DNA of 52,757 bases, taken from Escherichia phage vB_EcoM_SD350. Positions 37,482 to 52,757 of this stretch are shown here, piece after piece. The stretch lies in the sequence record OR911937.1. One strand, given 5' to 3'. The position numbers and the translations under genes are program-made. The notes beneath the pieces are model-generated. The model was not told where the DNA came from, searched no databases, and saw only the letters and a program-made list of their open reading frames with translations. Numbering within the stretch: position 1 is the stretch's first letter; each line of letters starts with the position of its first letter.

Positions 37482-37489
37482 GCTCCATC

Positions 37490-39407: not shown

Positions 39408-39432
39408 GCACTTTTTACGCTTCTGGTAAAAA

Positions 39433-40029: not shown

Positions 40030-40497
40030 TTATTCAGCAACTTCTTCGTTGTCGCCTTCGATCGCGCCAGCCAGTTTAGCAGCTTCAGCTTTAGCAGCTT
40101 CTGCTTTCTGGCGAGCTTTTTCAGCTTTCTCTTCAGCTTTGCGAATCTGCTCAGCAGCTTTCGCTTCGGCTTTTTCAGCTTTGATGCGAGCACGCTCTTC
40201 AGCTTTACGCTGTTTTTCAGCGGCTTTAGCAGCATCGCGTTCTGCTTTAGCGGTATCAACACGCTTAGCCAGAACTTTACCAGTGGCTTTACGCCAGTAG
40301 GTCAGCTGGGAAGAAACAGTACCACGGGACATTTCGGTAGTGGCAACAACTTCGTCCATAACGTCAGAGCTGGACTTGCCTTCTTCATGGGCTTTATCAG
40401 CCAGGTCCCATACATAACGTGCACCAGTACCAGCTGCCGGATACAGTACGCCGTTAACTTCTTCTTTACCAGTTACAAAAGTCAGTTTCTCGCTCAT
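40030..40497 (-). CDS. protein with Lys/Ala/Glu-rich low-complexity C-terminal tail
   Basis: Start set at MSEKL (GAGGA upstream); C-terminal ~70 aa is AKAERDAAKAAEKQRKAEERARIKAEKAEAKAAEQIRKAEEKAEKARQKAEAAKAEAAK. Confidence 0.5.
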   Translation of the reverse strand: MSEKLTFVTGKEEVNGVLYPAAGTGARYVWDLADKAHEEGKSSSDVMDEVVATTEMSRGTVSSQLTYWRKATGKVLAKRVDTAKAERDAAKAAEKQRKAEERARIKAEKAEAKAAEQIRKAEEKAEKARQKAEAAKAEAAKLAGAIEGDNEEVAE

Positions 40498-40603
40498 AAT
40501 TTTTTCCTCGTCTACAGGGCTTAATGTTTGTTCGTTACGTGAGTTAATATACGTCATTTAAAAGAGTGTGTAAACACCTTTTTTAAACTTTTTTCATTAG
40601 TGT

Positions 40604-40825
40604 CTAGAAAGGCACATCATAGTCAAAAAGTTTACATCCGGAAGACAGGACTGCCGGCGGTGGTGTTTTGCCTCCGGATAACAGGCAACCTCCTGCCTGA
40701 AAACTACGGCAGTTCGCACAGCTCATATCCTGCAAGTATATAATAAGCTGTCGGCGAACATGCCGGGGTAAAGCTTTAGCCTGGGTTGCTACCCGTTCAA
40801 ATAGTTCTCTGTCATCGAGCGCCAT
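40604..40825 (-). CDS. small Cys-containing hypothetical protein
   Basis: 73-aa ORF with CANC...C...C; overlaps the helicase 3' end by 14 nt. Confidence 0.4.
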   Translation of the reverse strand: MALDDRELFERVATQAKALPRHVRRQLIIYLQDMSCANCRSFQAGGCLLSGGKTPPPAVLSSGCKLFDYDVPF

Positions 40826-42482
40826 AACCGTTTCCCCAGTCGTAGTTCATGATTTGTGGGTAGGGTCGTTTAATCCATACCTTGATGCGCTTAGGAATAG
40901 CCAGCTCACCCTTACGGCGAATAAACTCATCGCATGTTTCAGGCGGTTCTGTTCCTGCAGCATTGCGCCACCAGGCATCTGCCATTTGCTTAGCATTGCC
41001 ATGGGCCTCTATATTTACCCATGTTGTATACACTTCCAGGTTTGAGTAGTACACAACCTTTATACTGTCTGGCCGTCCCTGCTTCTGGAATAAAGAATAG
41101 TTTACCAGCGTAACATCTTTATCCACAACACGAAGCTGACCGTTAGTCATTACCTCTTCTTCTGATGAAGTGAAGGCAATGGCAGGTCCGTTAACTGTAA
41201 ACTCAAATTCATGTCCGCACATCGGATATACACCATTCTCGTCTGGCGTACTTCCTTTAGCCGGATGCTTACACGTACGTGCGGCATAGCCACTTACCTG
41301 GTGACAGATAGGGCACTCTTTACCGCCAGGTGTTTTCTCTGACCGTTTCTTTTTCTTCTTACCAAGACGTGGCGGAACAGCCGGGTCGTCAATAGGCCCA
41401 AGGTCAATGGTGTTAGATGTGAAGTCCATAACAAGACAGTCATGCTTACCAGGCGCTGTACGTAATCCTCGACCGAGTATCTGCACCCACAAAGCAACAG
41501 ACGTGGACGGGCGCAAGATGCCGAGCATATCAATCTCAGGATAGTCAAATCCTGTCGTCAATACGTTTACGTTTACACAGACTCGTGCTCGTCCGCTTGT
41601 AAACTCTTCCAGTGTGGCTTCACGTTCTTTCTTCGTAAGACCGCCATGCACAACTACAGTCTGCCACCCTCGCAGATTAAATTCGTCTGCTATGTTGTGG
41701 GCGTGCTCAACACTTGTGGCAAATACAAGAACGTGGTTCCTGTCTTTACCGTAGTGCATCATCTCACGAATAGCCGCGACTGTTATACTATGCTGGTTGG
41801 CTACCTTCTCAAGCTCTGACGGGATGTAGTCACCCATCCTTTCGCCAACATTACTAGTGTCAATCTTGGTTAACACTTTCTTGTTGACCAGGCGTGACAG
41901 GAAGCCTTCATTTACCAGTCGGGTAAATGCGTCAGGTGTTGTAAGGTCATAACAGATGTCGGTAAATATACCACAGTCCAGCAAGTGACCACCTGCCAGG
42001 CGATACGGAGTTGCCGTAAGTCCTGTTACCTTTACCTTAGGATTAAGCTCTTTGAAGTGAGCAATAACCTTACGGTATGTTGTTTCAGACTTCTCAGGAA
42101 CAAGATGGGCTTCGTCAATGAATATAAGATTGAACTTGCCAGCTTCTTCCAGGTTCTTAATAATTGACTGTACCGACGCTACAACGATACGACCTGAAAA
42201 GTCTTTGTGTCCTGCTCCTGAAGAGTAGATAGATACTGGGGCTTGTGGCCAGTGGCGTACAATCGCTTTGGCGTCTTGTTCTACCAGCTCCTTGACGTGT
42301 GTCAATATAAGAATGCGCTGACGGGGATAGCTGGTAAGAATATCCTTCATCAGCATACCAAGCACAGGTGATTTACCTGAACCTGTCGGCATGACAATAA
42401 GTGGATTACCACTATAAGAATTGAAGTACGACCACCAGGCTGTGACCGCTTCAGTTTGGTACCAGCGAGCTTCAAAAGCCAT
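40812..42482 (-). CDS. SF2 (DEAH-type) DNA helicase with C-terminal zinc ribbon
   Basis: 556 aa; Walker A MPTGSGKS, Walker B FIDEAH, C-terminal CPICH...CKHP...MCGHE. Confidence 0.7.
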   Translation of the reverse strand: MAFEARWYQTEAVTAWWSYFNSYSGNPLIVMPTGSGKSPVLGMLMKDILTSYPRQRILILTHVKELVEQDAKAIVRHWPQAPVSIYSSGAGHKDFSGRIVVASVQSIIKNLEEAGKFNLIFIDEAHLVPEKSETTYRKVIAHFKELNPKVKVTGLTATPYRLAGGHLLDCGIFTDICYDLTTPDAFTRLVNEGFLSRLVNKKVLTKIDTSNVGERMGDYIPSELEKVANQHSITVAAIREMMHYGKDRNHVLVFATSVEHAHNIADEFNLRGWQTVVVHGGLTKKEREATLEEFTSGRARVCVNVNVLTTGFDYPEIDMLGILRPSTSVALWVQILGRGLRTAPGKHDCLVMDFTSNTIDLGPIDDPAVPPRLGKKKKKRSEKTPGGKECPICHQVSGYAARTCKHPAKGSTPDENGVYPMCGHEFEFTVNGPAIAFTSSEEEVMTNGQLRVVDKDVTLVNYSLFQKQGRPDSIKVVYYSNLEVYTTWVNIEAHGNAKQMADAWWRNAAGTEPPETCDEFIRRKGELAIPKRIKVWIKRPYPQIMNYDWGNGYGAR

Positions 42483-42504
42483 TTATCATCTCCTCATTAA
42501 CTTT

Positions 42505-42533
42505 ATATATTATACCACTTCCTTGTGGTAAAG
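42505..42533 (-). promoter_or_regulatory. leftward promoter candidate (CCAC-N6-GTGGTATAAT on the minus strand)
   Basis: Plus strand ATTATACCACTTCCTTGTGGTAAAG; minus strand reads TTTACCACaaggaaGTGGTATAAT. Confidence 0.45.
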
Positions 42534-42540
42534 TATACTT

Positions 42541-43419
42541 TTATTTTAAGGAAAGTTTAACGGGCTTCTCATCCTGCGGGAAGACATCAGCAGGGCGATA
42601 ATCATCACAAGCTGCTAATTGCTCTTCGAGTGTTTCGAGTTCTTTCTGGTGCTTGTTGCAATACCACACTTTGCCCTGAAGCGGTTTACTGTAATGGCAG
42701 GTTCTGCAGTTCCTGTCTGGCATTGCTCCTTTGTGGCACAGGTGATGGTATTCGCACATCCCTGGTTTGCACTCCCACCAAATAGGCGATTCAGAAATCT
42801 TCGGCATATCCAAACCAGATTCCGCATATACAACAGCCTCCGCTTTACTCAGTTGTATGTCGCTTTCCAGTAAGTCAATCTCGACCACCTCAAAATACAT
42901 CTCGTCGGTGTTCTTATTGATTGCGATGTACACAGCTTGATTCAGCTTAAGCTTCCGCATGTATACCTGCATCTGGGCATAGTGTACCGGCTTACTTGCT
43001 TTAACAGACTTGAGCTTGACTAACTCTTTAAACGACTTATCGCCATGCGTCTTGAATTCAGCAAGTGCCCATACGCCTTTGTATTTAATTACACAGTCAC
43101 AAGACCCAGAGAAGATGCCATTGAATTCGTGTATGCGCCACTGCTTACCAGTCTTGGGATTGACGTCCAGCACTTCGTCACATACGGAACGAAGCCACTT
43201 TACAATTCTGCTTTCTTCAAGGTTACCACGTTCAAACAGACGAAGTTGCTTAGCTGTAAACTTCTCCTTGAACGACCAGTGCAGAACGTGCCAAAGATAG
43301 CGATAGCAGTTGTGTCCTATCTGTGATGCTCCAAGATGCCCGCGTCGTTCTTCTCTTTCGTGGGCTTCAACTATCTTGATGTCAATACGTTTCTGCAGGT
43401 CGTCAAACGGACTTGGCAT
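42541..43419 (-). CDS. PD-(D/E)xK exonuclease, RecB/Cas4-like with Cys cluster
   Basis: EFK and QMQVY nuclease motifs plus C-terminal Cys cluster (CKPGMC, C, C..C); start set at MPSPFDD (GAGGAG upstream), not the track start 43536. Confidence 0.55.
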   Translation of the reverse strand: MPSPFDDLQKRIDIKIVEAHEREERRGHLGASQIGHNCYRYLWHVLHWSFKEKFTAKQLRLFERGNLEESRIVKWLRSVCDEVLDVNPKTGKQWRIHEFNGIFSGSCDCVIKYKGVWALAEFKTHGDKSFKELVKLKSVKASKPVHYAQMQVYMRKLKLNQAVYIAINKNTDEMYFEVVEIDLLESDIQLSKAEAVVYAESGLDMPKISESPIWWECKPGMCEYHHLCHKGAMPDRNCRTCHYSKPLQGKVWYCNKHQKELETLEEQLAACDDYRPADVFPQDEKPVKLSLK

Positions 43420-43888
43420 TGTTAAACTCCTCAACGCTGAATTCATCGTACACAATATTATGAGCCCACAAGTGAGCGACGGCATTTGCCATGCTGTCCT
43501 TCCATTTGGATTGAGAAGCGGTATGTGCCAATGCAACTACACGTACCAGGTTAAGGTTGGCTATCAGCATGTCAGCACAATGTTCGCACGGCGGGTAGGT
43601 TATGTAGATGGTAACCGGGCCTAAAGAAGGAGTGTCTAACTCACTCCTTATGTTAGCTAAGGTGTTTATCTCGCTATGAATAGTTAGAGCGTTCTTAAGG
43701 CTATTAGGCACTATTCTTATAGAGTCTAGCTGCGTAGGTAGACCGTTATATCCAGTGGAAATGATACGCTTGTTCTGGTCCACAAGAACGCTACCGACTT
43801 GACGTTTAGGGTCCTTCGACCAGCTCGCAACTTCACAAGCTATGCGCATAAACCGCCTATCCCACTTGTCCATCTTCTTCTTTTGCAT
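43403..43888 (-). CDS. dCMP deaminase-family zinc deaminase
   Basis: 161 aa; HSE and PCEHC zinc-binding motifs of the cytidine/dCMP deaminase fold. Confidence 0.65.
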   Translation of the reverse strand: MQKKKMDKWDRRFMRIACEVASWSKDPKRQVGSVLVDQNKRIISTGYNGLPTQLDSIRIVPNSLKNALTIHSEINTLANIRSELDTPSLGPVTIYITYPPCEHCADMLIANLNLVRVVALAHTASQSKWKDSMANAVAHLWAHNIVYDEFSVEEFNNAKSV

Positions 43889-43910
43889 GGTAGTCTCCGT
43901 ATACGAAAAT

Positions 43911-43926
43911 AGGGGCCGAAGCCCCT
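43911..43926 (-). other. intercistronic GC hairpin with UUCG tetraloop, second copy
   Basis: AGGGGC-cgaa-GCCCCT; on the transcript followed by AUUUUCG and a GGAGAC ribosome-binding site before the deaminase ATG. Confidence 0.45.
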
Positions 43927-43949
43927 ATTGAATATCTACTCGGCAGGGA

Positions 43950-44495
43950 TTATTCTTCCCAAGGAGCTGCTGCACCGTCGTCAGCACCAGGTGCCGTTGC
44001 AGTAGCACTCGCCTTCGTTGAAGTACCCGCACCTGCACCTACTTTCTTCGTCGTCGATGCAGTTGCTTGAGAATGACCACCTACTGCAGTAGTTGCTTCA
44101 GTTGACGCTTTGTATTCGCGAATATCGTTCTGCGGATCGTATTCACCGGTCTTGTCGATACGAACACCAACTTTACCAGCTACAATACGGTTTTCCAGTA
44201 AGTCGGTAGAAGTCAGCTCAACAATACCCAGCGCACGACACAACGCAGACAGTTTGCGATGACCGATTTCAACAGCTTGCGCATTAGGGTTGGAGTAGGT
44301 AATCATGTCAAATACAACACGGTTAGCGAACTCACCTTCCTGCACTTTCAGACGCAGGGACAGGTAAGAACCAGTGCCTGCTTTAGTCGGCTTCAGCTCA
44401 ACCTCTTCAATCATGAAGTTGTACCAGCCTTTCGGGATCGGGTCAAAAGACTGTTGCGGTTCGACGGTAGAGCTGTTGAAGTTTAATTCAGCCAT
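43950..44495 (-). CDS. hypothetical protein, possible ssDNA-binding partner of the ATPase
   Basis: 181 aa, beta-rich N-terminal domain plus Ala/Thr/Gly-rich acidic tail ending PWEE; family guess (DUF669-like) from memory. Confidence 0.4.
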   Translation of the reverse strand: MAELNFNSSTVEPQQSFDPIPKGWYNFMIEEVELKPTKAGTGSYLSLRLKVQEGEFANRVVFDMITYSNPNAQAVEIGHRKLSALCRALGIVELTSTDLLENRIVAGKVGVRIDKTGEYDPQNDIREYKASTEATTAVGGHSQATASTTKKVGAGAGTSTKASATATAPGADDGAAAPWEE

Positions 44496-44602
44496 TGTTT
44501 GGTATCCTGTTTAAGTTTAGTTTAATTTCGTTTAACGCTTTACCGGCAGCGTTCGGCCGTGATGCTTATTATACGCCACTTTTTATCATGGCGTAAACAC
44601 TT

Positions 44603-45487
44603 TTATTCGCTGGTTCCTTTCTCAGCTTGAGCGGCTTTCTTCGCCATCCAGGCTTGGTGCTTATCTTTCGATTCGTCCGAACCGATTTTAGTGAGTTGCA
44701 CGTTCGGGTCGTCGTTCTGCATCTGTTCTGCAGCTCGACCTGTCAGAAGCAGGTAGCTGTCTGACTCCGGATGGTAGTACCACAGCTGGTAAGGATGATA
44801 ACCTTGCAGCTTGTCATAAATCCAGCCCAGGTCTGCAGGTTCACGTGCATCCAGTTCACGGCCTGGTGCGTTACGGCACTTAGCTTCCCATTGGTAGTCT
44901 GGTTGTGTCTGGATGTAGCGCTCGCTATTACCATTGGCGTCAGGCGCAGTCATACGTAAAGCAAGTACAGCATCCATAAGATACGGCAGTTGTTTAGGTA
45001 GCTGCTGGCCAGGCATGAGAGGTGAATACAACATTGCACCAGTAACCTCGTCCTTGTTCTTCTCAAGCTTGCAAAGGTATGCAACGCTGAAAGGCAAGTC
45101 ACGGAACTGACGCATGATATACATCATCTTGTCGTTGGTATTACCATAAGCCTGTCGTTTGTCGTTGACCTGCGACTTCTCATAGTCCAGACAAACTTCA
45201 GCAACGTCCGATAGTGAGTCGAAAATAAGATGCTCGTACTTCTGCGCATCCTTACTTTCGGTAAGCCATTTGTATAGCGCCAGAATGTCGTTGAACGTAT
45301 TGATTGGCGTAGAGTCGATGTCAGCATCTGCAATCGACATCAAACCGCCTTCAGCGTTAATGACAAGAACCTTATCGTGAGGCAAGGTCTTAGCCAGGCT
45401 GGTTTTACCAACACCTGATGCGCCGTAAATAGCGACCTTAGGTCGCTTATTTTCTACGGCTTGTTTAGTAGATACAATCTGAACCAT
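44603..45487 (-). CDS. Sak4-like RecA-fold ATPase (recombination)
   Basis: 294 aa; Walker A VAIYGASGVGKTS near the N-terminus, Walker B-like LIFDSLSD. Confidence 0.55.
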   Translation of the reverse strand: MVQIVSTKQAVENKRPKVAIYGASGVGKTSLAKTLPHDKVLVINAEGGLMSIADADIDSTPINTFNDILALYKWLTESKDAQKYEHLIFDSLSDVAEVCLDYEKSQVNDKRQAYGNTNDKMMYIMRQFRDLPFSVAYLCKLEKNKDEVTGAMLYSPLMPGQQLPKQLPYLMDAVLALRMTAPDANGNSERYIQTQPDYQWEAKCRNAPGRELDAREPADLGWIYDKLQGYHPYQLWYYHPESDSYLLLTGRAAEQMQNDDPNVQLTKIGSDESKDKHQAWMAKKAAQAEKGTSE

Positions 45488-45717
45488 TAATGATAGTCCT
45501 CGTAAAGTGATTCTTCATCGCAGTACATACGATAAAGAGCTTCTTCGGCTTCTGCCAGGGTGTCAAACTCCTCGCCACAGACGGAGTATTTTGTGGGTTC
45601 ATCGAATGACTCGACGATGTGCCAGTCATGATGAATACCATATGTCCACAAGTCGCAGTCATCTTTTGCAACAAGCTTACGTGTGGAACGAAATTGTGCT
45701 AGAGTATTGATGCTCAT
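45487..45717 (-). CDS. hypothetical small protein
   Basis: Start set at MSINT (AGGAGAGAG upstream) rather than track start 45756; promoter-like motif at 45745-45770. Confidence 0.4.
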   Translation of the reverse strand: MSINTLAQFRSTRKLVAKDDCDLWTYGIHHDWHIVESFDEPTKYSVCGEEFDTLAEAEEALYRMYCDEESLYEDYH

Positions 45718-45777
45718 ATTCTCTCTCCTCATGTGTATAGAGGTATTATACACCACTTACATGGGGTAAGTACACTA

Positions 45778-46224
45778 CTATTTTACACTAACAGCTTGAC
45801 ACGATAGCCGTGACAAACCGAGGTTGGCTATGACACCATCGAGCAATACTCCTGCATGTTCTTCGTTGTATGCTTCTACCCACAAAGGGATGGTGACGCC
45901 CTTCAGATGGTCGCTGTACACGTTGAACCTATATACCTGTTTGTGTGCTTTGTCAACACGTACAACAGTAAGGTTACCATCTTCGTAAGGAGGAAGCTCA
46001 ACGCCTTTCTTGCTCCAGAAGTTACGGAACTCAGCACTATTAACAATGCCGTGCACAACACGTTCTGTAAGTTCTGTTTTGAGGTCTGCACGTGCCTTTG
46101 TACTGATAAAGAAACGACAAGAGAAGAAAGCATTGACGTTTATCACATCAACCGCATACACAACGTTATGCTCTTCAGTAGTTGGTGCTTTATAAACAAT
46201 GTATTTAGTTTTGAACAGGTCCAT
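45778..46224 (-). CDS. hypothetical protein
   Basis: Start set at MDLFK (GGAGAG upstream); 148 aa. Confidence 0.45.
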   Translation of the reverse strand: MDLFKTKYIVYKAPTTEEHNVVYAVDVINVNAFFSCRFFISTKARADLKTELTERVVHGIVNSAEFRNFWSKKGVELPPYEDGNLTVVRVDKAHKQVYRFNVYSDHLKGVTIPLWVEAYNEEHAGVLLDGVIANLGLSRLSCQAVSVK

Positions 46225-46272
46225 AGTACTCTCCAGGGAGGAAGACTGGCGGGCTTGCACCCGCCTAAGTTA

Positions 46273-47178
46273 TTACAGCAGTTCTGCTTTCAGCGCAGCG
46301 ATACCATCGAGCAATGCTTTGATGTCCGGGTTAGATGCCGCCAGGTCAGCAACAACTGTCTGACGACGACGTTCCAGTTCTTTCTCAACTTCCAGGTCGA
46401 GGCGTGCTGACGCTTCACGCAGTAAGTCTTCAACCTGCTGACGACGCTGATACTTGTTAAAGTCAGGCACATCAACCAGCCATTTGAGAGTTGCAGTGTT
46501 GTAGCCAGAAGTGTTTGCTGCACTTACAGACACAACATCAACGAGCTTGGTACCGTTCAGCTCCGGATAGTTAACATTGCGAACGTCAACAACCGCTTTG
46601 TCACCTACACTTACTTTGCCGATGTACTTGTAAGTGTACACACGACCATTCGGTTCAAACTTAACACCAACAAACTTCAGTTTGTCGTCTGCAATAACCT
46701 CTTCCTCAACTTTGAAGTTGATTGCAGTGTTCTTGACAGGTGCAGCCGCTTTGAGCTTAGCGACCATGTACTGTTCTGAATGAGACGGACGGCACAGACG
46801 GAAGACGTCCTCATTGTAGGTCAGCCAGTTACCGGTCTCATCCACGCATGCAATCTGATTAGTGCCATCCAGTGAACGAACACCCGGGCGATTCTTCTCA
46901 ACACGATACAGCTTACCTTCTTTCAGGTTAGCGTAAGAACGGCGGGCGATACCCCAGTTGTGTTTTTCAGATTCGTACTTAGCGAAACGATCAACGCTGA
47001 AGTTCTGCTTCAGACCACGGTCGTCGATTACCCATAAGTTATCGTAAGCCCCGCCGAAAGAACCTAGGTTGGCATACACTTTGCCCTGCGTCAACAGGGA
47101 AGTGTTTCCCTCGTCAACACAGATAACAAAACCCAGAGCTTCGTGTGCTTTACCGCTGCGGTCAAATACTGTAGTCAT
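46273..47178 (-). CDS. hypothetical protein (301 aa)
   Basis: Long ORF, beta-rich internal repeats, coiled-coil C-terminus; no motif assigned. Confidence 0.55.
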   Translation of the reverse strand: MTTVFDRSGKAHEALGFVICVDEGNTSLLTQGKVYANLGSFGGAYDNLWVIDDRGLKQNFSVDRFAKYESEKHNWGIARRSYANLKEGKLYRVEKNRPGVRSLDGTNQIACVDETGNWLTYNEDVFRLCRPSHSEQYMVAKLKAAAPVKNTAINFKVEEEVIADDKLKFVGVKFEPNGRVYTYKYIGKVSVGDKAVVDVRNVNYPELNGTKLVDVVSVSAANTSGYNTATLKWLVDVPDFNKYQRRQQVEDLLREASARLDLEVEKELERRRQTVVADLAASNPDIKALLDGIAALKAELL

Positions 47179-47292
47179 TTCTTGTTTCCTTGTATACCAG
47201 TTTAATTGTATGCCAGAGTTATTCCCTGCGCATGTGCTTTATTGCTTAACCGTTAAAGACATTATATCATTAGTGAGTGATGACGTACACAT

Positions 47293-47583
47293 TTATTTTA
47301 AGGCAGAAGTGCAAATAGCATCACACAAACAATAATGAGCACGGTCGTAGTCTTCAAACAAGAACACTTCGCCATTGGCGACAACTTCATTACTGTTGAC
47401 CTGCAGGCTAATACCTGAATGCAGAAGCACATCCATAGCCTGGTCCTTGTTCTTGTACGGGTCCCAAATAAGCTGGAAGCCTGACCCGCAAAGGAGACAT
47501 CCCTTGAGCTCCGGAAGAGTTGACTCCTTCACAGTCACATTACAAATCTTAGCCAGTTTAGCACGAGAATCGAGAGTACTCAT
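47293..47583 (-). CDS. hypothetical Cys-rich small protein
   Basis: 96 aa with CLLC...C.C..C; stop overlaps the next gene's start. Confidence 0.4.
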   Translation of the reverse strand: MSTLDSRAKLAKICNVTVKESTLPELKGCLLCGSGFQLIWDPYKNKDQAMDVLLHSGISLQVNSNEVVANGEVFLFEDYDRAHYCLCDAICTSALK

Positions 47584-47870
47584 TTACGTTTACCTTTACG
47601 TTTGTGTAGCGGAGTATATGTTTTCTTTGGTACGCCAAACATGGCCGCATATGTACCGACTTCTTTCTTTGTTGGCTTATCCACAATCTCGTCAATCACG
47701 ATTAAGTCATGGTTGATATTGCGAAAGACTTCAGCCGCTCTTTTCTCAACAGGAGTAAAGTCAATAACCAGCTCTTTGCCTATCAGGCTTTCTTTGAACT
47801 TGTCAAACAGCCATTTGTCACGCGGACCAGGATTGCCCATAAACATAACACGCATCTGCTTATTGTCCAT
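47580..47870 (-). CDS. hypothetical small basic protein
   Basis: 96 aa, basic C-terminus (KRKGKRK). Confidence 0.4.
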   Translation of the reverse strand: MDNKQMRVMFMGNPGPRDKWLFDKFKESLIGKELVIDFTPVEKRAAEVFRNINHDLIVIDEIVDKPTKKEVGTYAAMFGVPKKTYTPLHKRKGKRK

Positions 47871-47938
47871 GGATGATATACCCCGTTATTTGTGTTGCCA
47901 GGTACAAACCGTATACCACACACCCAACAAGTATGGCA

Positions 47939-48280
47939 TCAAGAATCAGATGAGCTATCTTCACGTTTGACCTCCGGAAGTAATGAGTTATCAACCTTGA
48001 TCAGTACGTTACGGCTGTTAACCACTTCCAGGCTGGTGCCATCCTTTTTGTGGGTTACACGAATAAATGCAACACCCTCAGCCTGTGCCTGCTCAATAGC
48101 TTTATTCAGCACAACATTATCCTGTACCATATGACGTACGCGAGGAAGGATATTGCAAAGAGGTTCCATCTCGTCCATTCCTGCAGTACGCATGACGGAC
48201 TTGAGAATGCCAAGATGATGCTTGTAACGGTCTTCAAGATTATACTTCTTGCTGTTATCTGATGCCATGTAAGTCTCCAA
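47939..48280 (-). CDS. hypothetical protein
   Basis: 113 aa; preceded on the transcript by a GC hairpin (48287-48305) and GGAGAC ribosome-binding site. Confidence 0.45.
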   Translation of the reverse strand: METYMASDNSKKYNLEDRYKHHLGILKSVMRTAGMDEMEPLCNILPRVRHMVQDNVVLNKAIEQAQAEGVAFIRVTHKKDGTSLEVVNSRNVLIKVDNSLLPEVKREDSSSDS

Positions 48281-48312
48281 AAGTTAAGGGGCTTGTGCTA
48301 AGCCCCGTTTAA

Positions 48313-48762
48313 TTACTCGGCTTCTTCCGTAGCTGCCGGGGTGAATGTTACAGTCGGAATACCAGGCGAGGTCTTCACAACAGGGTCGACGATAGCCAGT
48401 TGTTCTGGTGTCAGGTTACGGTATGCAGTAACTGACATTTCATACTTGGTTTTAAACAGCTTGGCAACAACAGTCTTCGGTAACTTCTTCATTACGTCAG
48501 GCACAAGCTTCTGGTCTAGTGAGCGGTTAACCTTCTGCTCAACCTTGAGTTTACCAGGTACGCCATGCATGCTGAACTCAACCGTTTGTGTACCTTCTTT
48601 ACCACGATTGATAATCATGTCACGTTCAAGACGTGCTTTAATGGTCCGGCGCAACGTCTCCTGGTCAGCTTTCGCTTGTGCCATCCAGCGGTTCAGATTC
48701 GCCAGCTTGTCGTACAGCTGTTCCGTATCCATCGATTCCAGTTCTTGTGGGTTCAATGCCAT
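48313..48762 (-). CDS. hypothetical protein
   Basis: Start set at MALNP (GAGGAA upstream); promoter-like motif 48865-48897 lies upstream. Confidence 0.45.
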   Translation of the reverse strand: MALNPQELESMDTEQLYDKLANLNRWMAQAKADQETLRRTIKARLERDMIINRGKEGTQTVEFSMHGVPGKLKVEQKVNRSLDQKLVPDVMKKLPKTVVAKLFKTKYEMSVTAYRNLTPEQLAIVDPVVKTSPGIPTVTFTPAATEEAE

Positions 48763-49033
48763 CAGTTGTTTCCTCAGGTTGCATGTGCATAGTTGCACCT
48801 ATTAGTAGACAATAGTTATTGAACATTGTACGTAGTGCCTGGCCCGCAACAATATCCGTTATGTCTATTATACCACTTTTAGTGGTGACGCGTAAAGCTT
48901 TTTCTTTCTTTGTTTTCTCCACAAATGCAATGCTGATGATTTCTTCCGCATGAATTACGTGGATGGTACCTGCAAACTCACCAGTCTTAGCTGGTGCCTG
49001 GTACACTAACGACATAGACGGTTGGTTACTCAC
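48665..49033 (-). CDS. alternative overlapping ORF (uncertain)
   Basis: 122-aa ORF with GTG start and GGAG 7 nt upstream, but overlaps 48313-48762 by ~100 nt and contains the promoter-like motif. Confidence 0.3.
   Translation of the reverse strand: MSNQPSMSLVYQAPAKTGEFAGTIHVIHAEEIISIAFVEKTKKEKALRVTTKSGIIDITDIVAGQALRTMFNNYCLLIGATMHMQPEETTDGIEPTRTGIDGYGTAVRQAGESEPLDGTSES
48865..48897 (-). promoter_or_regulatory. leftward promoter candidate (TTTACG-N18-TATAAT with CCAC/GTGG inverted repeat)
   Basis: Minus strand reads GCTTTACGCGTCACCACTAAAAGTGGTATAAT. Confidence 0.4.
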
Positions 49034-49043
49034 TTAATTACTC

Positions 49044-49481
49044 CTATTTATATAAGTCCATCCAGTTACGATACTCGTCATAAAACCGGTCAAACTCGTT
49101 TTTGGTGAGTGCAATAGCAACACCATTTACCAGATGCATGGTTCGTGTTTTGATGTTGACATACATGACGTTGCTGTACGGGAACAAGCTACCGTCATTG
49201 TCAGTGAAGTAAGTCGGTGTGATATGAAGCGCATCACGCAATGCAACCAGTGATTCAACAGCTTCAGCGTGCCATTCACGTCTGAAGGTCATGCAAGGCG
49301 GTACACCGTCTTCGTCCTGGGTACCGCGCAAAGTAAGATATACAATTTCGGCAGTATCATTGTGTACAATTACGCTAATGTCAACGATGTCGCTGGTACG
49401 AAAGGTAACAAAGTGCTCTTCAATTACTTGTTCGTCGGTATTAGGACTGACGCCCTGAAAGGTCTTGAGTGTGTGAAACAT
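49044..49481 (-). CDS. hypothetical protein
   Basis: Start set at MFHTLK (AAGGAG 9 nt upstream); the track's N-terminal 28 aa read like translated AT-rich promoter DNA. Confidence 0.45.
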   Translation of the reverse strand: MFHTLKTFQGVSPNTDEQVIEEHFVTFRTSDIVDISVIVHNDTAEIVYLTLRGTQDEDGVPPCMTFRREWHAEAVESLVALRDALHITPTYFTDNDGSLFPYSNVMYVNIKTRTMHLVNGVAIALTKNEFDRFYDEYRNWMDLYK

Positions 49482-49574
49482 TGGTTGTATCTCCTTAACA
49501 GAATGTAAGTCTATTATGTATATAAAGGAGGGGAAAGTAAATAGATATAAATGTATAAAATACATAAAAGTCTA

Positions 49575-49604
49575 TTTACTCTGGTTTAATAACGTGTATA
49601 TAAT
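49575..49604 (+). promoter_or_regulatory. promoter candidate for the right-end rightward genes
   Basis: TTTACT 49575-49580, ~18-nt spacer, TATAAT 49599-49604; AGGAGAG ribosome-binding site before ATG 49635. Confidence 0.4.
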
Positions 49605-49634
49605 GAGAGCCTCACAAACAAGAGGAGAGACTCA

Positions 49635-49967
49635 ATGATAAAGCCAAAACTGTTGCGGCATATTCGCAACGGTATTAAGCTACTCGCCGAAGGCAATGAA
49701 TATGCCTGCAAGCAACGCGGTATTACAAAAGTCGGCCTGTTCAATAAAGAGTTACCGACTCGCTACTTTACCAAATCACCATTAACACTCGTACCTGCAG
49801 CGGAGTATTATAAAGACCCCGAAGCAGCCCGGGCTAAAATCAAGGAAGGTCTTGACCGACTTGTAGAGGAAGGCTATTTGACAGTACGTCAACACACTGA
49901 ATCATCTTATTACTACAAGCCAACTTCTAAGGTAACCAGCAATGACAATGACGAGTCAGCCGAGTGA
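49635..49967 (+). CDS. hypothetical protein
   Basis: 110-aa ORF coupled to the downstream primase-like gene. Confidence 0.45.
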   Translation: MIKPKLLRHIRNGIKLLAEGNEYACKQRGITKVGLFNKELPTRYFTKSPLTLVPAAEYYKDPEAARAKIKEGLDRLVEEGYLTVRQHTESSYYYKPTSKVTSNDNDESAE

Positions 49968-52476
49968 TATTCTCGGTCTGAAATACTTTAAGCCAGAAGG
50001 GATTCCCCAAGTCTTCAAAGATATGAAGCGCTGGGCTATCTTTGAGCTAACGTACGAAGACGAGACTCTTGAAGTTCAATCCAAACCGAAAAAACCTGCA
50101 AGAGCGCCATCAGGCCGTTCCTTCAGCACAACTGTGCCTGAAGAGTGGATGACTTTCGACGACGCCCTGACACGTTGTATTCGCAATCGTGAAATGAAGA
50201 TTAAAGCTGTACAGGGTAACATCACCTTTGTGCCGGCTTTGATTGTTCCTCGCCAGTGGTACTTTGTTGACCTGGACAACCATGATGATAATCCAGACAT
50301 TGAAGCAACCCACAAAGCGATAATTGAGGGGACCCGTGGTGCTTATGCCGAGACGTCAATCTCTGGCAAAGGGCAACACATTGCAATCCCTTTACCCTGG
50401 ACTGCAGCAACGTCTAAAGAGAAAGACGAACAGCTGGACATCAAAATCCAGAAGGCTGAGATGTTCCTGGTAATGACAGGCAATGTATTGAGTGAGTTCA
50501 ATGCTAATCCTGTTTCAGCCCGTGAGTGGCATGCGGCAATTGAGAAGTTCTTTCTTGAAGCAAGCGCGCCTGATATTGATGTTGAGTTTGAACAAGACGA
50601 AGACCGTGGCGAAGAGTATGACAAAGAGCTGTACGAACAGTTAGCCGACAATACTCGCTGGGCTTTAGAGCACTATCTGAATGAGCATGCACCAGACGGT
50701 GTTGGTGTGAGTAATGACGGTTCAGAACGGTTAAGCCGCATACTCAAAGACTTGCTTCGTGTAACCCGTAACTATGAAGTTACACAACGCATCTTCATGG
50801 CCAGCAAAGCTGCAGCATACGAAGGTCGCAGACCAAGTCGACACAACTTGTCTGTTGATAAGTATCACCAGTGGTTCAGTCGTGTCGGTAAGACTGTGCT
50901 GAAAGAAATGCAACGTGACGGCTTATTCGTTAAAACCAAGTTTGCTCTTGACATCAACAAAGAGTTAGCCAAGAATTCAGGTGTCTCCCTGGCTGAGAAT
51001 GTTGAGTTCAAAGTCAACGACGATATTCTGCCTTCTGATGTATTCGTCAGAACGGCCCCGTCCGGGTTTAAACGGCTTATTGCTGAGATACAGGATAACA
51101 TATCTCCTGCTAACAGGGTTAACGACTATGCCATCGGCACAGCTCTTAACATCCTGAGCAACTGCGCTGGTCGCAAGTATGTTTGTCCAGTAGGCGGTCA
51201 TGCTAACTTCCTGGTAACCAACATCATTCTTGTGGGTGGTTCATCAATCGGTAAATCGTTGTATACTGAGATGTTCCCACAAATCCAGGCAAGCTTACCT
51301 GATACATCGCCTATCAGCCTTAACCGTATCCCAAGGGAACAGACTTTTGCAACCAGGACGTTTGCTGAACTGATGTCCAACCCGTCATACCATTCAGTCC
51401 AGTTGTTCTACCCTGAATTTGGTCTGGCTTTAGGTTCTGGCTTACGCATGAATCCTAATAACCCGGACAACTTTCAGAAAGCTCTGATGGACGCTTCAAC
51501 CAAGCGTAAGGTTGGCGGTATTCTGACAGGTATCAAACGTGCTAATGCTGACAATGATGTTAAGACAGTAAGCGAACCGTGTTACTCTATCCTGGGTGAC
51601 TCCACTCAAGAACTTATCCTTGACAACACCCGGAAGCAAGACTTCTCAAGTGGCTTTTTGCCCCGCTTCCTGTTCATCCCTAACTATGAACGAGCGGAGT
51701 TTGCCAAACCTGAGAAGGTAGGACGCCGACAGCAGATTCGCCGTACTCAATTCTCCAAAGAGCTGATTGAGAAGCTGGAAGCAATCGCTTATGTGAATGC
51801 TATCCCGCCTAACGGTAAACTAAGGCACGACCCGATTCCTATTTACGACGAATCGGACGACGATGACTTCCTGTATGAGTACCAGTGCAATATTAATGAC
51901 ATGCGCAAGTATTACAGGGACAACGAAGTAGCATCCGCCTTTGTGGGCCGAATGGGTGAGTATGTATTCAATATAGCAGCACTGATTGGATTACTCGACA
52001 ACTGGGATGCTCCTGTAATGACCAGGGACAACATTGAATGGGCTTACAAATATGTTCTTCGTTGTATAACCGCCTGGGTCAATAACACAAGCAGGATAGT
52101 CGCACCACCAACTACCAACGCCGAAGTAGTGGACGGCTTCCTCAAAGTCTACAGGGACATTTTGGCCCTTTACACCAAACGAGGATGGTCTGGCATTGTC
52201 AAGCATTATCCCGAAGGTGTTGTAAGAAGTATCCGGGAGGAGCACCTCCAGATGAATGGTTTAAGCATATATGCTATTCGTCAGTCTTTGAGCTGGTTTA
52301 AATCGAATTACGGTTTTAATATTACAGCTAATAACAAAGTCATTGACGGTATGTTACAGGATATGATTGACCAGGACTATTTAGCAGTACAAGTATATAA
52401 GCCCACAAGAGGCCGATCTGCTAACATTTACTGCCTGACAGAGCGAGGATATGACACTGCTAAGAAGTTAAAATAA
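49942..52476 (+). CDS. DNA primase (primase-polymerase-like N-terminal domain) fused to a P-loop NTPase domain
   Basis: 844 aa; N-terminal acidic YFVDLDNHDD (DxD-like) and GKGQHIAIP segments; central P-loop GGSSIGKS. Confidence 0.5.
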   Translation: MTMTSQPSDILGLKYFKPEGIPQVFKDMKRWAIFELTYEDETLEVQSKPKKPARAPSGRSFSTTVPEEWMTFDDALTRCIRNREMKIKAVQGNITFVPALIVPRQWYFVDLDNHDDNPDIEATHKAIIEGTRGAYAETSISGKGQHIAIPLPWTAATSKEKDEQLDIKIQKAEMFLVMTGNVLSEFNANPVSAREWHAAIEKFFLEASAPDIDVEFEQDEDRGEEYDKELYEQLADNTRWALEHYLNEHAPDGVGVSNDGSERLSRILKDLLRVTRNYEVTQRIFMASKAAAYEGRRPSRHNLSVDKYHQWFSRVGKTVLKEMQRDGLFVKTKFALDINKELAKNSGVSLAENVEFKVNDDILPSDVFVRTAPSGFKRLIAEIQDNISPANRVNDYAIGTALNILSNCAGRKYVCPVGGHANFLVTNIILVGGSSIGKSLYTEMFPQIQASLPDTSPISLNRIPREQTFATRTFAELMSNPSYHSVQLFYPEFGLALGSGLRMNPNNPDNFQKALMDASTKRKVGGILTGIKRANADNDVKTVSEPCYSILGDSTQELILDNTRKQDFSSGFLPRFLFIPNYERAEFAKPEKVGRRQQIRRTQFSKELIEKLEAIAYVNAIPPNGKLRHDPIPIYDESDDDDFLYEYQCNINDMRKYYRDNEVASAFVGRMGEYVFNIAALIGLLDNWDAPVMTRDNIEWAYKYVLRCITAWVNNTSRIVAPPTTNAEVVDGFLKVYRDILALYTKRGWSGIVKHYPEGVVRSIREEHLQMNGLSIYAIRQSLSWFKSNYGFNITANNKVIDGMLQDMIDQDYLAVQVYKPTRGRSANIYCLTERGYDTAKKLK

Positions 52477-52487
52477 GTAGGTAAATC

Positions 52488-52530
52488 AAGGGCTTGGGTA
52501 ATTGTAAAAATCCTAAGCCCTTATTTTTTA
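52488..52530 (+). terminator. rho-independent terminator after the primase gene
   Basis: AAGGGCTT (52488-52495) pairs with AAGCCCTT (52515-52522), then ATTTTTTAAG. Confidence 0.55.
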
Positions 52531-52629: not shown

Positions 52630-52745
52630 TCGATAAATAAAAATAAAGGGGGTAATAAAGGGGATACAAGTACCGGATAAAGGGGGGTATATATTTATTT
52701 TATTATTATTATTATTATTATATATTATTAATTATATTAGAAGTA
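52630..52745. repeat. AT-rich right-end region with ATAAAGGGG iterons and (ATT)n microsatellite
   Basis: ATAAAGGGG(G) at 52643, 52655, 52677 (12- and 22-nt spacing); TTATTATTATTATTATTATT at ~52701-52720; CCGGAT at 52673 echoes CCGGAT at 54-59 and 99-104. Confidence 0.5.
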
Positions 52746-52757
52746 ATAAAAACAGCT

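What the first reader, a model, noticed from the sequence alone, without database searches (positions are those of the whole stretch)
52630..52757. Right-end AT-rich region with spaced ATAAAGGGG iterons, an (ATT)n run and a CCGGAT motif shared with the left end
Three ATAAAGGGG(G) copies at 52643, 52655 and 52677 are spaced roughly one and two helical turns apart, followed by seven consecutive ATT repeats. CCGGAT at 52673 recurs at the left end (54-59, 99-104, the first inside an 8-bp inverted repeat 24-31/52-59). If the genome is circular or permuted, 52480 through 204 forms one ~480-bp noncoding region that could hold the packaging site, terminus or an origin.
Basis: seen in the sequence. Interest (0 to 1): 0.4.

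Follow-up and report, generated by a model that had tools for sequence, protein, structure and literature searches.

The report
Phage genome-end control region
The flagged repeats sit just outside the true left end of a Salmonella/E. coli phage genome that carries a roughly 4.3-kb terminal repeat, so this stretch is the phage's end-processing region (and possibly its replication start), an ordinary kind of element whose parts had not been described.

Summary
ATAAAGGGG occurs at 52643, 52655 and 52677; 0.28 copies are expected per window. A 52-bp A/T-only tract with a TTA microsatellite follows, and ACCGGAT copies lie at both window ends.

The window is a Rosemountvirus (BP63-like myovirus). 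Its two ends are contiguous in permuted records of relatives, so 52477..204 is one 485-bp intergenic region between the primase/helicase gene and a resolvase gene.

The genome is not circularly permuted. Three relatives (fHy-Eco03, AEV23, vB_SalM_Sz) carry 3.7–4.3-kb direct terminal repeats whose boundaries fall at exactly homologous bases. In the window these are 75|76 (TTTACGCT|GGCGG) and 4334|4335.

An A-run–T-run–GCY|GGC word occurs only at these two sites, in inverted orientation. That fits nicks on opposite strands followed by 3'-extension.

The iterons and AT block lie 93–185 bp outside the repeat. They are conserved in layout across the family, but their sequence drifts. Their role is unresolved: I favour a terminase recognition platform (about 0.4) over a replication origin (about 0.3).

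This is a new member of a known kind, of moderate interest.

The parts
49942..52476 (+). Primase/helicase gene (844 aa) that ends immediately upstream of the region. Its C-terminal ~120 aa are predicted to form a winged-helix-like domain.
   Evidence: PHROG 3022 DNA primase, E 7e-186. Weak DUF3987 match. AF2 model with mean pLDDT 68 (about 80 for the C-terminal part); the best Foldseek hits are PadR/MarR/RTP winged-helix proteins at E about 1e-2.
52488..52529 (+). Intrinsic terminator of the primase operon: stem AAGGGCTTGGG / CCTAAGCCCTT, 13-nt loop, then a T-run.
   Evidence: Fold energy -17.9 kcal/mol, z -2.2. The stem is kept with paired changes in relatives (GGGCTT/AAGCCC versus GGACTT/AAGTCC) in the alignment.
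52643..52687 (+). Three direct repeats ATAAAGGGG(G) at 52643-52652, 52655-52663 and 52677-52687, with ACCGGAT (52672-52678) overlapping the third.
   Evidence: 0.28 copies expected per window. Conserved in position across 16 relatives; the G-runs drift to A-runs in ZCSE2 and fHy-Eco03. GGGGGTAAT (52648) occurs only once more in the window, at 4298 next to the right repeat boundary.
52688..52739 (.). A/T-only tract of 52 bp containing the imperfect (TTA)n microsatellite (52695-52739).
   Evidence: Longest A/T-only run and lowest-GC spot of the window. TRF result. An A/T-only block of 46-66 bp is present at this place in every relative where it was measured and also visible in Erwinia phages SOI901 and RF1. 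Its length varies: +15 bp in brunost.
52748..52757 (+). First half of the most conserved box, AAAAACAGCT|ACTTAGAGGCGTCTATA. The window's arbitrary linearisation point splits it.
   Evidence: AAAACA-N3-ACTTAG is kept in all 16 aligned relatives, in Erwinia phage RF1, and as AAAACA-N3-GCTTAT in the Logan contigs.
1..17 (+). Second half of the conserved box (ACTTAGAGGCGTCTATA).
   Evidence: The words AGCTACTTA and AGGCGTCTA recur upstream of the putative terS gene at 7259 and 7229.
24..59 (.). Inverted repeat ATCCGGTT (24-31) / AACCGGAT (52-59). It is part of a longer imperfect inverted repeat that ends 1 nt before the cut.
   Evidence: The longer arms are GCGTCTATATGTATGATCCGGTT / AACCGGATGAAAAAAATTTACGC in the Sz homologue (I7). 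(C/T)(C/T)GGAT(G/A) copies recur 2-3 times in the ~70 bp before the cut in divergent relatives.
61..80 (+). Predicted left terminus site AAAAAAATTTACGCT|GGCGG, with the cut between 75 and 76.
   Evidence: The repeats of fHy-Eco03 (PhageTerm plus restriction, PMC8145870) and vB_SalM_Sz (exact 4263-bp repeat in the record) start at the homologous G. In AEV23 the phage sequence starts exactly at |GGCGG, and the distance to the right site equals the published 3915 bp. The word occurs only here and at 4332-4347 in the window.
76..4334 (.). Predicted direct terminal repeat (4259 bp), present once in the window. It carries the resolvase-like gene and a block of small leftward genes.
   Evidence: Homology of both boundaries to Sz, fHy-Eco03 and AEV23. 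Predicted virion DNA is 52757 + 4259 = 57016 bp, against 57020 (Sz) and 57011 (fHy-Eco03).
81..100 (+). A6TA7 tract followed by AACCGGAT (93-100), just inside the repeat.
   Evidence: A6TA6 occurs only twice in the window: here and as T6AT6 at 4342-4354, 7 nt beyond the right cut. (G/A)(C/T)CGGATTG is kept in 14 of the 16 aligned relatives, varying in birk and zoltan (CCGGACTG) and SE1_KM; it is kept in L034 and replaced in L032.
122..150 (+). Sigma-70-type promoter TTTACA-17-TACAAT with TG extension, reading into the resolvase-like gene.
   Evidence: 10 of 12 consensus matches. Conserved in all but the birk/zoltan type of the 16 aligned relatives and in both Logan contigs.
205..636 (+). PDDEXK_15 / RusA-like resolvase gene, the first gene inside the repeat.
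   Evidence: Pfam PF24608, E 5e-18. PHROG 244.
4117..4180 (+). R1: a second copy of the right-boundary module (GGCAGGGGTTAT...AGGGGTGCCAC...GGAGCC|GGCGAAATTATTT). It is not used as a boundary in the three mapped relatives.
   Evidence: Conserved in the Logan contigs.
4290..4354 (-). R2: predicted right terminus. G-boxes GGGGGGTAAT (4297-4306) and AGGGGTG (4312-4318), cut 4334|4335 (GGAGCC|AGCAAAA), then T6AT6. Read on the minus strand it is AAAAAATAAAAAATTTTGCT|GGCTCC.
   Evidence: Sz, fHy-Eco03 and AEV23 repeats end at the homologous base. The LPSEYT record starts 7 nt beyond it. The S144 paper maps a physical end to this gap by restriction (PMC7432712).
7210..7267 (+). Motif cluster upstream of the putative terS-terL operon that shares four 9-11-nt words with the junction: AAAAACCGGAT, ACCGGATAAA, AGGCGTCTA and AGCTACTTA.
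   Evidence: Conserved in yarpen, SE13, SE4 and ZCSE2.
7389..9131 (+). Putative small terminase (7389-7679, 96 aa) and large terminase (7683-9131).
   Evidence: TerL: PHROG 979, E 1e-38. The 96-aa protein has no family match, is 64-100% conserved across the family, and is called terminase small subunit by one source. Its AF2 model has low confidence, pLDDT 59.

Best explanation
The flagged segment is the outer flank of the left boundary of a long direct terminal repeat.

The window is a collapsed copy of a fixed-end Rosemountvirus genome, linearised at an arbitrary point. In replicating DNA its two ends are joined. The real left end of virion DNA is at 75|76 (TTTACGCT|GGCGG) and the real right end is at 4334|4335. 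Positions 76-4334 (4259 bp) are therefore present at both ends of the packaged DNA.

The same word, A-run / T2-4 / GC(C/T)|GG(C/G), flanks the repeat on both sides when read from outside inward, that is, in inverted orientation. The simplest mechanism is that one sequence-specific nicking activity, presumably the terminase, nicks opposite strands at the two sites. The 3' ends are then extended through the repeat by strand displacement, giving each daughter genome its own copy.

The module 93-185 bp outside the left nick consists of the three ATAAAGGGG repeats with their embedded ACCGGAT, plus the 52-bp A/T-only tract. Together with the ACCGGAT-type repeats on both sides of the nick, I think it is most likely the protein-binding platform and flexible or easily melted spacer on which this maturation complex assembles. 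It would then work like lambda cosB or a pac site.

What is shown:
- contiguity of the window ends;
- the positions of the boundaries in three relatives and their exact homology in the window;
- uniqueness of the boundary word;
- conservation of the layout.

What is inferred:
- that this particular phage has the repeat;
- which strands are nicked;
- which protein binds the repeats;
- that the iterons serve packaging rather than replication.

My confidence is about 0.85 for the terminus and repeat part, and about 0.4 for the packaging role of the iterons.
For: Contiguity of the window ends:
- Shown: Boundaries in relatives:
- fHy-Eco03 has a 3699-bp repeat found by PhageTerm and confirmed by restriction digests (PMC8145870). 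It is annotated in the record and begins inside this intergenic region.
- vB_SalM_Sz has an exact 4263-bp repeat at both record ends, starting at the homologous base.
- AEV23 has a 3915-bp repeat by PhageTerm (PMC12918118). This equals the distance between the homologous left and right sites in its record.
- In S144, restriction maps a physical end to the gap that holds R2 and excludes cohesive ends (PMC7432712).
- The LPSEYT and AEV23 records begin within 7-8 nt of the right and left sites.

Boundary word:
- The boundary words of the window, Sz and fHy-Eco03 match when read outside-in.
- The word occurs only twice in the window: 61-78 on the plus strand and 4347-4332 on the minus strand.
- A6TA6 occurs only next to the two boundaries.
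- The staggered-nick plus 3'-extension model is the general one stated for direct-terminal-repeat phages (PMC5557969).

Packaging role of the repeats:
- ACCGGAT-type repeats flank the nick on both sides in all relatives, and one copy sits inside the iteron array.
- GGGGGTAAT is found only at iteron 1 and 33 nt from the right nick. G5-7TAAT boxes next to GCC|GGC are kept in divergent contigs.
- Four junction words recur upstream of the putative terS-terL operon and are conserved there.
- The distance from G-run 1 to the cut is 184-187 bp in most relatives despite sequence divergence.
Against: Terminus and repeat:
- No reads of this phage were available, so its own termini are inferred by homology only.
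- How the Sz repeat was determined is not documented.
- One paper on a relative (vB_SenM-1, PMC7503781) reports COS-type packaging from PhageTerm.
- The S144 authors proposed short repeats.
- The core GCCGGC is itself a palindrome, so the case for inverted orientation rests on the A/T-rich outer flanks. The search pattern was also derived from the two sites themselves.

Packaging role of the iterons:
- The iteron-to-cut distance changes by +15 and +17 bp in brunost and ZCSE2.
- G-runs 2 and 3 are lost in ZCSE2 although it belongs to the same species as S144, which keeps them.
- The 96-aa protein upstream of terL could not be shown to be a small terminase.
- Iterons abutting the most easily melted tract of the genome, right after a primase/helicase gene, are equally typical of an origin.
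Confidence: 0.45

Rival explanations
1. The iteron/AT module is the phage replication origin. A phage initiator, for example the primase/helicase acting through its C-terminal winged-helix-like domain, binds the three helically phased repeats. It melts the adjacent A/T-only tract and loads the replisome. The terminus 93 bp away would be a separate element that happens to share the intergenic region, or that uses the same melting to start repeat-duplicating synthesis.
For: - Three direct repeats at 12- and 22-bp spacing directly abut the longest A/T-only tract and lowest-GC spot of the genome.
- The module lies immediately downstream of the primase/helicase gene. From my own knowledge, this arrangement is known for P4 (ori/crr), SaPI pri-rep-ori modules and Streptococcus thermophilus phages.
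- The primase C-terminus is predicted as a winged-helix-like fold.
- The distance to the cut is not fixed (+15 and +17 bp tolerated), which suggests separable modules.
- The three-repeat layout persists although the repeat sequence drifts.
Against: - There is no functional or marker-frequency data.
- GC skew follows transcription direction and gives no origin signal.
- The winged-helix evidence is weak (E about 1e-2; mean pLDDT 68), and the putative recognition helix is acidic.
- G-runs 2 and 3 are lost in ZCSE2 without matching protein change.
- The G-box and ACCGGAT words link the array to both repeat boundaries and to the terS upstream region rather than to replication genes.
Confidence: 0.3
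2. The G-rich repeats are not protein-binding iterons but purine clusters on the non-template strand of a rightward transcript. They would stabilise an RNA-DNA hybrid (R-loop) that primes DNA synthesis in the adjacent AT tract, as at T4 or ColE1-type origins. Alternatively they are operator sites of a transcription regulator.
For: - In ZCSE2 and fHy-Eco03 the G-runs change to A-runs, so purine richness is conserved rather than the exact word.
- -10-like words (CATAAT, TAATAT) lie 20-25 nt upstream of iteron 1 in most relatives.
- Shared words with the terS promoter region could reflect a common transcription factor.
Against: - The promoter scan finds no plus-strand sigma-70-type promoter between the terminator and the iterons.
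- Read-through from the primase operon is blocked by a good terminator.
- There is no Rfam match.
Confidence: 0.1
3. The repeats and the microsatellite have no sequence-specific role. The intergenic spacer is AT-rich and slippage-prone, and the G-runs are tolerated remnants. Only the nick site and the promoter are functional.
For: - Microsatellite length varies between close relatives.
- The iteron sequence drifts, and the exact word is absent from SOI901 and RF1.
Against: - The layout (G/C-rich element, A/T-only block of 46-66 bp, AAAACA..ACTTAG box) is kept even in Erwinia phages whose primase is only 22-41% identical.
- Three exact 9-mers within 45 bp against 0.28 expected per genome.
Confidence: 0.1
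4. The genome is circularly permuted (headful packaging) or has cohesive ends, as the reader's 'circular or permuted' wording and the vB_SenM-1 paper suggest. The region would then be a pac or cos site without a terminal repeat.
For: - Records of relatives are linearised at many different points.
- PhageTerm was reported to call COS for vB_SenM-1.
Against: - Three relatives have defined repeats with homologous boundaries.
- Restriction analysis of S144 shows a fixed end and excludes cohesive ends.
- Assemblers place the first base of direct-terminal-repeat phages arbitrarily.
Confidence: 0.05

Closest known systems
T7/T3-type concatemer junction (short direct terminal repeat, with cis elements left of the repeat needed for processing)
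   Same: - Fixed ends.
- One repeat copy between genomes in the concatemer.
- The repeat is duplicated by DNA synthesis.
- Short repeated words and AT-rich or origin-like elements lie in the unique DNA directly next to the repeat.

The T7 details are from my own knowledge. The general model is stated in PMC5557969.
   Different: - The repeat is about 4.26 kb rather than 160-230 bp.
- The phage is a myovirus that uses host RNA polymerase.
- The two boundaries carry the same word in inverted orientation, which I do not recall being described for T7.
- There is no homology of sequences or proteins.
Long-terminal-repeat phages (T5, SPO1) and the published relatives fHy-Eco03 and AEV23
   Same: - A kilobase-scale exact repeat that carries small early genes.
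- Boundaries at exactly homologous bases in fHy-Eco03, AEV23 and Sz.
   Different: - The published papers report only repeat lengths.
- In the full-text searches run here, no paper was found describing the boundary word, its inverted arrangement, the iterons or the CCGGAT repeats.
Lambda cos (cosN nick site plus cosB R-sites and a bend) and P1/SPP1 pac sites
   Same: - A nick or cut site with short repeated protein-binding words within about 200 bp, on one or both sides.
- A bendable AT-rich segment between them.
   Different: - The ends are neither cohesive nor headful.
- The cut sites are 4.26 kb apart.
- Binding by a small terminase is not shown.
- The spacing between iterons and cut is not strictly kept.
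Iteron-type origins (lambda ori, P4 ori/crr, SaPI ori next to pri-rep)
   Same: - Helically phased direct repeats next to an AT-rich unwinding element.
- Location just downstream of a primase/helicase gene.
   Different: - No initiator has been identified.
- There are only three short repeats, two of which are dispensable in some relatives.
- The same words recur at the terminal-repeat boundaries and before the terminase genes.

Membership tests
Direct-terminal-repeat (fixed-end) phage genome | The same sequence is present at both ends of virion DNA. | tested here: met
   Met in relatives, not in the window itself. Sz has an exact 4263-bp repeat at both record ends. fHy-Eco03 has annotated repeats at 1-3699 and 53313-57011. 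The window holds a single copy, as expected for a collapsed assembly.
Direct-terminal-repeat (fixed-end) phage genome | Sharp, fixed termini (read-start peaks or restriction end fragments) and two-fold coverage between them. | not testable with these tools
   No reads were available. This is published for fHy-Eco03 (PhageTerm plus restriction) and AEV23 (PhageTerm). Restriction evidence for one fixed end exists for S144. There is a conflicting COS call for vB_SenM-1.
Direct-terminal-repeat (fixed-end) phage genome | Boundary sequences of mapped relatives are present at homologous positions in the window. | tested here: met
   Left: TTTACGCT|GGCGG at 75|76. Right: GGAGCC|AGCAAAA at 4334|4335. 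These are identical or near-identical to Sz and homologous to fHy-Eco03 and AEV23.
Terminase recognition site (cosB / pac type) | Repeated short words close to the cleavage site. | tested here: met
   ACCGGAT-type words lie at about -50 (inverted), -22 and +19 relative to the cut, and inside the iteron array at -160. The ATAAAGGGG copies lie at about -190 to -145.
Terminase recognition site (cosB / pac type) | Binding by the small terminase subunit. | not testable with these tools
   The candidate gene 7389-7679 has no family match, and its model has low confidence. The only indirect hint is that junction words recur upstream of this gene.
Terminase recognition site (cosB / pac type) | Fixed geometry between binding sites and cut. 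| tested here: inconclusive
   The distance from G-run 1 to the cut is 183-187 bp in 11 of the 13 relatives where it was measured, but 200 and 202 bp in brunost and ZCSE2.
Iteron-type replication origin | Three or more direct repeats in helical phase next to an AT-rich unwinding element. | tested here: met
   Spacings of 12 and 22 bp. The repeats abut a 52-bp A/T-only tract that is the genome-wide GC minimum.
Iteron-type replication origin | Repeats conserved, or co-varying with an initiator, among relatives. | tested here: inconclusive
   The three-element layout is kept, but the words drift. ZCSE2 loses two G-runs while its primase stays about as similar to the window's as that of S144.
Iteron-type replication origin | Initiator binding and origin activity. 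| not testable with these tools
   There is only a weak prediction of a winged-helix-like C-terminus on the primase/helicase.
Circularly permuted headful genome | No fixed ends; a series of pac fragments. | tested here: not met
   Fixed homologous boundaries are found in three relatives, and there is restriction evidence for a fixed end in S144.
Intrinsic terminator (52488-52529) | GC-rich stem-loop followed by a T-run at the end of an operon. | tested here: met
   11-bp stem, -17.9 kcal/mol, followed by ATTTTTT. The simple scan missed it because its loop is 13 nt.

The most novel reading that the evidence does not exclude
One site-specific nicking activity cuts opposite strands at an inverted pair of A-tract/GCY|GGC sites 4.26 kb apart. 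The iteron plus A/T-only module just outside the left nick would then be an origin-like loading site that launches the strand-displacement synthesis duplicating the repeat. In that reading, replication initiation and genome maturation are physically coupled in a single ~260-bp element, and the primase/helicase encoded next door is the loader.
Probability: 0.12. Interest if true: 0.65.

Novelty: new member of a known kind. Interest (0 to 1): 0.4.

Why it matters
Most database records of this phage group, including the BP63 type genome, are deposited as if circular or arbitrarily cut, and they lack the ~4-kb terminal repeat. The group is widely proposed for Salmonella and E. coli biocontrol and therapy.

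Fixing the true ends at single-base resolution by homology has three uses:
- It corrects genome length and gene copy number, since a block of small genes in the repeat is present twice per virion.
- It defines the DNA that enters the cell first or last.
- It gives a compact, testable candidate for the cis-acting packaging signal, which is useful for engineering, transduction-safety assessment and synthetic rebooting.

The inverted pair of identical boundary words is a simple, directly testable prediction about how long terminal repeats are made, a step that is poorly understood outside T7.

Tried and rejected
- GC skew follows transcription direction and says nothing about an origin.
- The promoter scan found no plus-strand promoter between the terminator and the iterons, so the R-loop idea has no promoter.
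- The Rfam scan of the contiguous junction found nothing.
- The ORF scan found no ORF over the iterons or AT block. The small ORFs annotated there in some records look spurious.
- The IMG/VR scan with the terS-like protein returned only four already known genomes.
- The protein search with the primase C-terminal 200 aa returned nothing. The full-length search gave only 7 homologues, so the C-terminal model rests on a shallow alignment.
- Pfam, NCBIfam and PDB sequence searches gave no domain for the primase C-terminus or the terS candidate.
- The AF2 model of the terS candidate was too poor (pLDDT 59) to search with.
- A literature search for T7 pacB returned only PacBio noise, so the T7 comparison rests on my own knowledge.
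- The longer inverted repeat abutting the cut (I7) is only moderately conserved. I did not pursue covariation.
- Contig ends of metagenome relatives fell in the microsatellite or about 100 nt from R2 and were not informative.
- The fourth ATAAAGGGG copy (33691) is one arm of a hairpin at convergent gene ends and is unrelated.
Full report
**1. Observation**

Reading the window ends confirms the features.
- ATAAAGGGG(G) starts at 52643, 52655 and 52677, with spacings of 12 and 22 bp.
- Next comes a run of seven TTA/TAT triplets inside an imperfect period-3 array at 52695-52739.
- CCGGAT lies at 52673, 54-59 and 95-100.
- An 8-bp inverted repeat lies at 24-31/52-59.

These are not chance features.
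- The 9-mer is expected 0.28 times per window and occurs 4 times, three of them within 45 bp.
- AACCGGAT is expected 0.83 times and occurs 4 times, three of them within 80 bp of the left end.
- The 52-bp A/T-only run 52688-52739 is the longest in the window (the next is 20 bp) and the GC minimum at every scale tried.

**2. What the window is**

The ends match about 60 phage records of the genera Rosemountvirus (BP63-like) and Loughboroughvirus, myoviruses of Salmonella, E. coli and Klebsiella.
- In records linearised elsewhere, the window's last base and first base are adjacent: SPLA12 16340|16341 and JEP7 44731|44732.
- So 52477..204 is one 485-bp intergenic region between the primase/helicase gene (49942-52476) and a PDDEXK/RusA-like resolvase gene (205-636).
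- The window's start follows the BP63 record convention and is arbitrary. It cuts the most conserved box of the region in two.

**3. The terminus**

- The record of E. coli phage fHy-Eco03 annotates terminal repeats at 1-3699 and 53313-57011. The right copy begins inside this same intergenic region, 360 bp after the primase stop. Its paper states that 3699-bp direct terminal repeats were found with PhageTerm and that the termini were confirmed by restriction digests (PMC8145870).
- The record of Salmonella phage vB_SalM_Sz (57,020 bp) carries an exact 4263-bp repeat at both ends.
- Klebsiella phage AEV23 is reported to have a 3915-bp repeat by PhageTerm (PMC12918118). In its record the phage-homologous sequence starts exactly at |GGCGGAAAATTT, and the homologous right site lies 3915 bp away.
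- All three left boundaries fall on the same aligned base, and so do all three right boundaries.
- For S144, restriction analysis placed a physical end in the gap that contains the right site and excluded cohesive ends (PMC7432712).
- The LPSEYT and AEV23 records begin within 7-8 nt of the right and left sites.

Transferred to the window, the left end is 75|76 (TTTACGCT|GGCGGAAAAAATAAAAAAACCGGATTG) and the right end is 4334|4335 (CAGGAGCC|AGCAAAATTTTTTATTTTTT). The repeat is 76-4334 (4259 bp), and virion DNA should be about 57,016 bp.

The one discordant report is a PhageTerm 'COS' call for vB_SenM-1. Its record starts inside the polymerase region and does not fit the other data.

**4. The boundary word**

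Read from outside into the repeat, the two boundaries are alike.
- Window: AAAAAAATTTACGCT|GGC on the left and AAAAAATTTTGCT|GGC on the right (minus strand).
- fHy-Eco03: AAAAAGTTATTGCC|GGC and AAAAAATTTGCC|GGG.
- AEV23: AAAAAACTTACGCC|GGC and AAAAAAATCCGTC|GGC.

In the window, A{5,}T{2,4}N{0,2}GC[CT]GG[CG] occurs only at these two places, on opposite strands. A6TA6 likewise occurs only next to the two boundaries.

There are two caveats. The core GCCGGC is a palindrome, and the pattern was derived from the sites themselves. The argument therefore rests on the A/T flanks and on uniqueness.

The arrangement is what the standard model for direct-terminal-repeat phages requires: staggered nicks with extension of the 3' ends (PMC5557969). 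A single nicking specificity acting in opposite orientation at the two ends leaves, on each nicked strand, a 3'-OH outside the repeat that can be extended through it. This step is inference.

**5. Anatomy of the junction**

From left to right:
- primase stop;
- terminator hairpin 52488-52529, with paired changes in relatives;
- a variable AT-rich stretch;
- three iterons with an embedded ACCGGAT (52643-52687);
- the A/T-only tract (52688-52739);
- the conserved box AAAAACAGCT|ACTTAGAGGCGTCTATA (52748-17);
- the inverted ATCCGGTT/AACCGGAT pair (24-59);
- an A-run and the nick site (61-80);
- A6TA7 and AACCGGAT (81-100);
- a near-consensus promoter TTTACA-17-TACAAT (122-150);
- the resolvase gene.

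Alignment of 16 relatives, two Logan contigs and Erwinia phage RF1 shows the following.
- The layout G/C-rich element, A/T-only block (46-66 bp where measured), AAAACA..ACTTAG box is kept throughout.
- The nick word and the inner CGGATTG are kept in nearly all relatives, and the promoter in all but the birk/zoltan type.
- (C/T)(C/T)GGAT(G/A) copies recur 2-3 times before the cut.
- The exact ATAAAGGGG word is kept in Rosemountvirus, S144, AEV23 and PK3.
- In ZCSE2 and fHy-Eco03, G-runs 2 and 3 become A-rich (GAAAAAGAAAA, GGAAAAAGAGAG, still 21 bp apart).
- In more distant phages other G-containing words take their place.
- The distance from G-run 1 to the cut is 183-187 bp in most relatives, but 200 and 202 bp in brunost and ZCSE2.

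**6. Links beyond the junction**

- GGGGGTAAT occurs only at iteron 1 and at 4298, 33 nt left of the right nick.
- The right boundary has two tandem copies of a module: a G5-7T(A/T)AT box, a second G-run, then GCC|GGC. These are R1 at 4117-4180 and R2 at 4290-4354. Both are conserved even where the left iterons have drifted.
- The region just upstream of the putative terS-terL operon (7210-7267) shares AAAAACCGGAT, ACCGGATAAA, AGGCGTCTA and AGCTACTTA with the junction. I estimate about 0.15 such hits expected by chance. These words are conserved there across genera.
- The 96-aa protein encoded there is much better conserved than the primase, but it could not be assigned to a family or modelled with confidence.

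**7. Function of the iteron/AT module**

Two readings fit.

(a) Packaging recognition.
- The module is close to the nick, and repeats lie on both sides of it.
- The same words recur at the other boundary and in front of the terminase genes.
- The geometry is largely kept.

(b) Replication origin.
- Phased repeats abut the most easily melted tract of the genome.
- The module lies directly after a primase/helicase gene whose C-terminus is predicted, weakly, as winged-helix-like.
- Length changes between module and nick are tolerated.

Neither reading can be tested here. I give (a) about 0.4 and (b) about 0.3. The two are not mutually exclusive. From my own knowledge, origin-like promoter/AT elements next to the terminal repeat of T7 take part in concatemer processing. 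Lesser rivals are an R-loop or regulatory role, for which no promoter was found, and no specific role.

**8. Comparison and novelty**

- The kind of element, the end region of a direct-terminal-repeat phage, is well known. The repeat itself is already published for two relatives.
- The single-base placement of both ends across the family appears undescribed in the papers I could search. The same holds for the inverted identical boundary word, the duplicated right-boundary module and the iteron/CCGGAT architecture.
- I file this as a new member of a known kind, of moderate interest.

Noticed in passing
window 4117-4180: A second, tandem copy (R1) of the right-boundary module, with a perfect GCC|GGCG at 4158|4159, lies 176 bp inside the repeat. 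It is conserved in all relatives examined but is not the boundary in the three mapped phages. It may be an alternative nick site or the upstream edge of a promoter module.
   Followed up: partly
window 3730-4564: An 835-bp stretch without ORFs of 80 aa or more is unusually conserved: 93-98% within Rosemountvirus and about 74% to Loughboroughvirus, with blocks kept in Erwinia phage SOI901. It holds the right repeat boundary and several promoter-like modules.
   Followed up: partly
window 7210-7267 and 7364-7371: The region upstream of the putative terS gene shares four 9-11-nt words with the junction. It also has a palindromic ATCCGGAT next to the ribosome-binding site. This may reflect autoregulation or a shared DNA-binding factor.
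   Followed up: partly
window about 101-150, 4160-4225, 4440-4510: Three promoter-like modules share an A/T-run followed by (T)GTAGAC or TATAGAC and a TTTAC-type -35. TGTAGAC and TAGACAC also occur at 7281 and 7304. This may be a family-specific promoter element.
   Followed up: no
L001 (brunost) 1896-1954; BP63 record end: The TTA microsatellite is 15 bp longer in brunost. The BP63 reference record stops inside the microsatellite (window 52699), so it probably lacks about 58 bp.
   Followed up: partly
L026 (AEV23 record 53894-55637): Directly left of the phage's left terminus the AEV23 record continues with an IS5-family transposase and a methyltransferase. This looks like a chimeric assembly with host DNA.
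   Followed up: no
records PP583539 and MK673511: A record labelled 'Listeria phage 220426122051' is a Rosemountvirus (primase C-terminal 299 aa 97.7% identical), so its host label is doubtful. The ZCSE2 GenBank record names the primase 'anaerobic NTP reductase small subunit'.
   Followed up: no
window 33671-33699: ACAAAGGGG...CCCCTTTAT forms a hairpin between convergent genes, probably a bidirectional terminator. It accounts for the fourth ATAAAGGGG hit.
   Followed up: no
L031 (Erwinia phage RF1) 3400-3670: A distant relative keeps the layout terminator / GC-rich inverted-repeat element / A/T-rich block of about 80 bp / TAAAACAATGACTTAG box. Here the homologue of the primase C-terminus is a separate 315-aa protein.
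   Followed up: partly
window 7389-7679: The 96-aa protein before terL is 64-100% identical across the whole family, including Erwinia phage SOI901 at about 71-73%. The primase is only about 41-43% identical to SOI901. The protein has an acidic tail of variable length in relatives.
   Followed up: partly
window length versus PP236111: The unique length of vB_SalM_Sz (57020 - 4263 = 52757) equals the window length, although the two differ by about 4% in the junction. This is probably coincidence.
   Followed up: no
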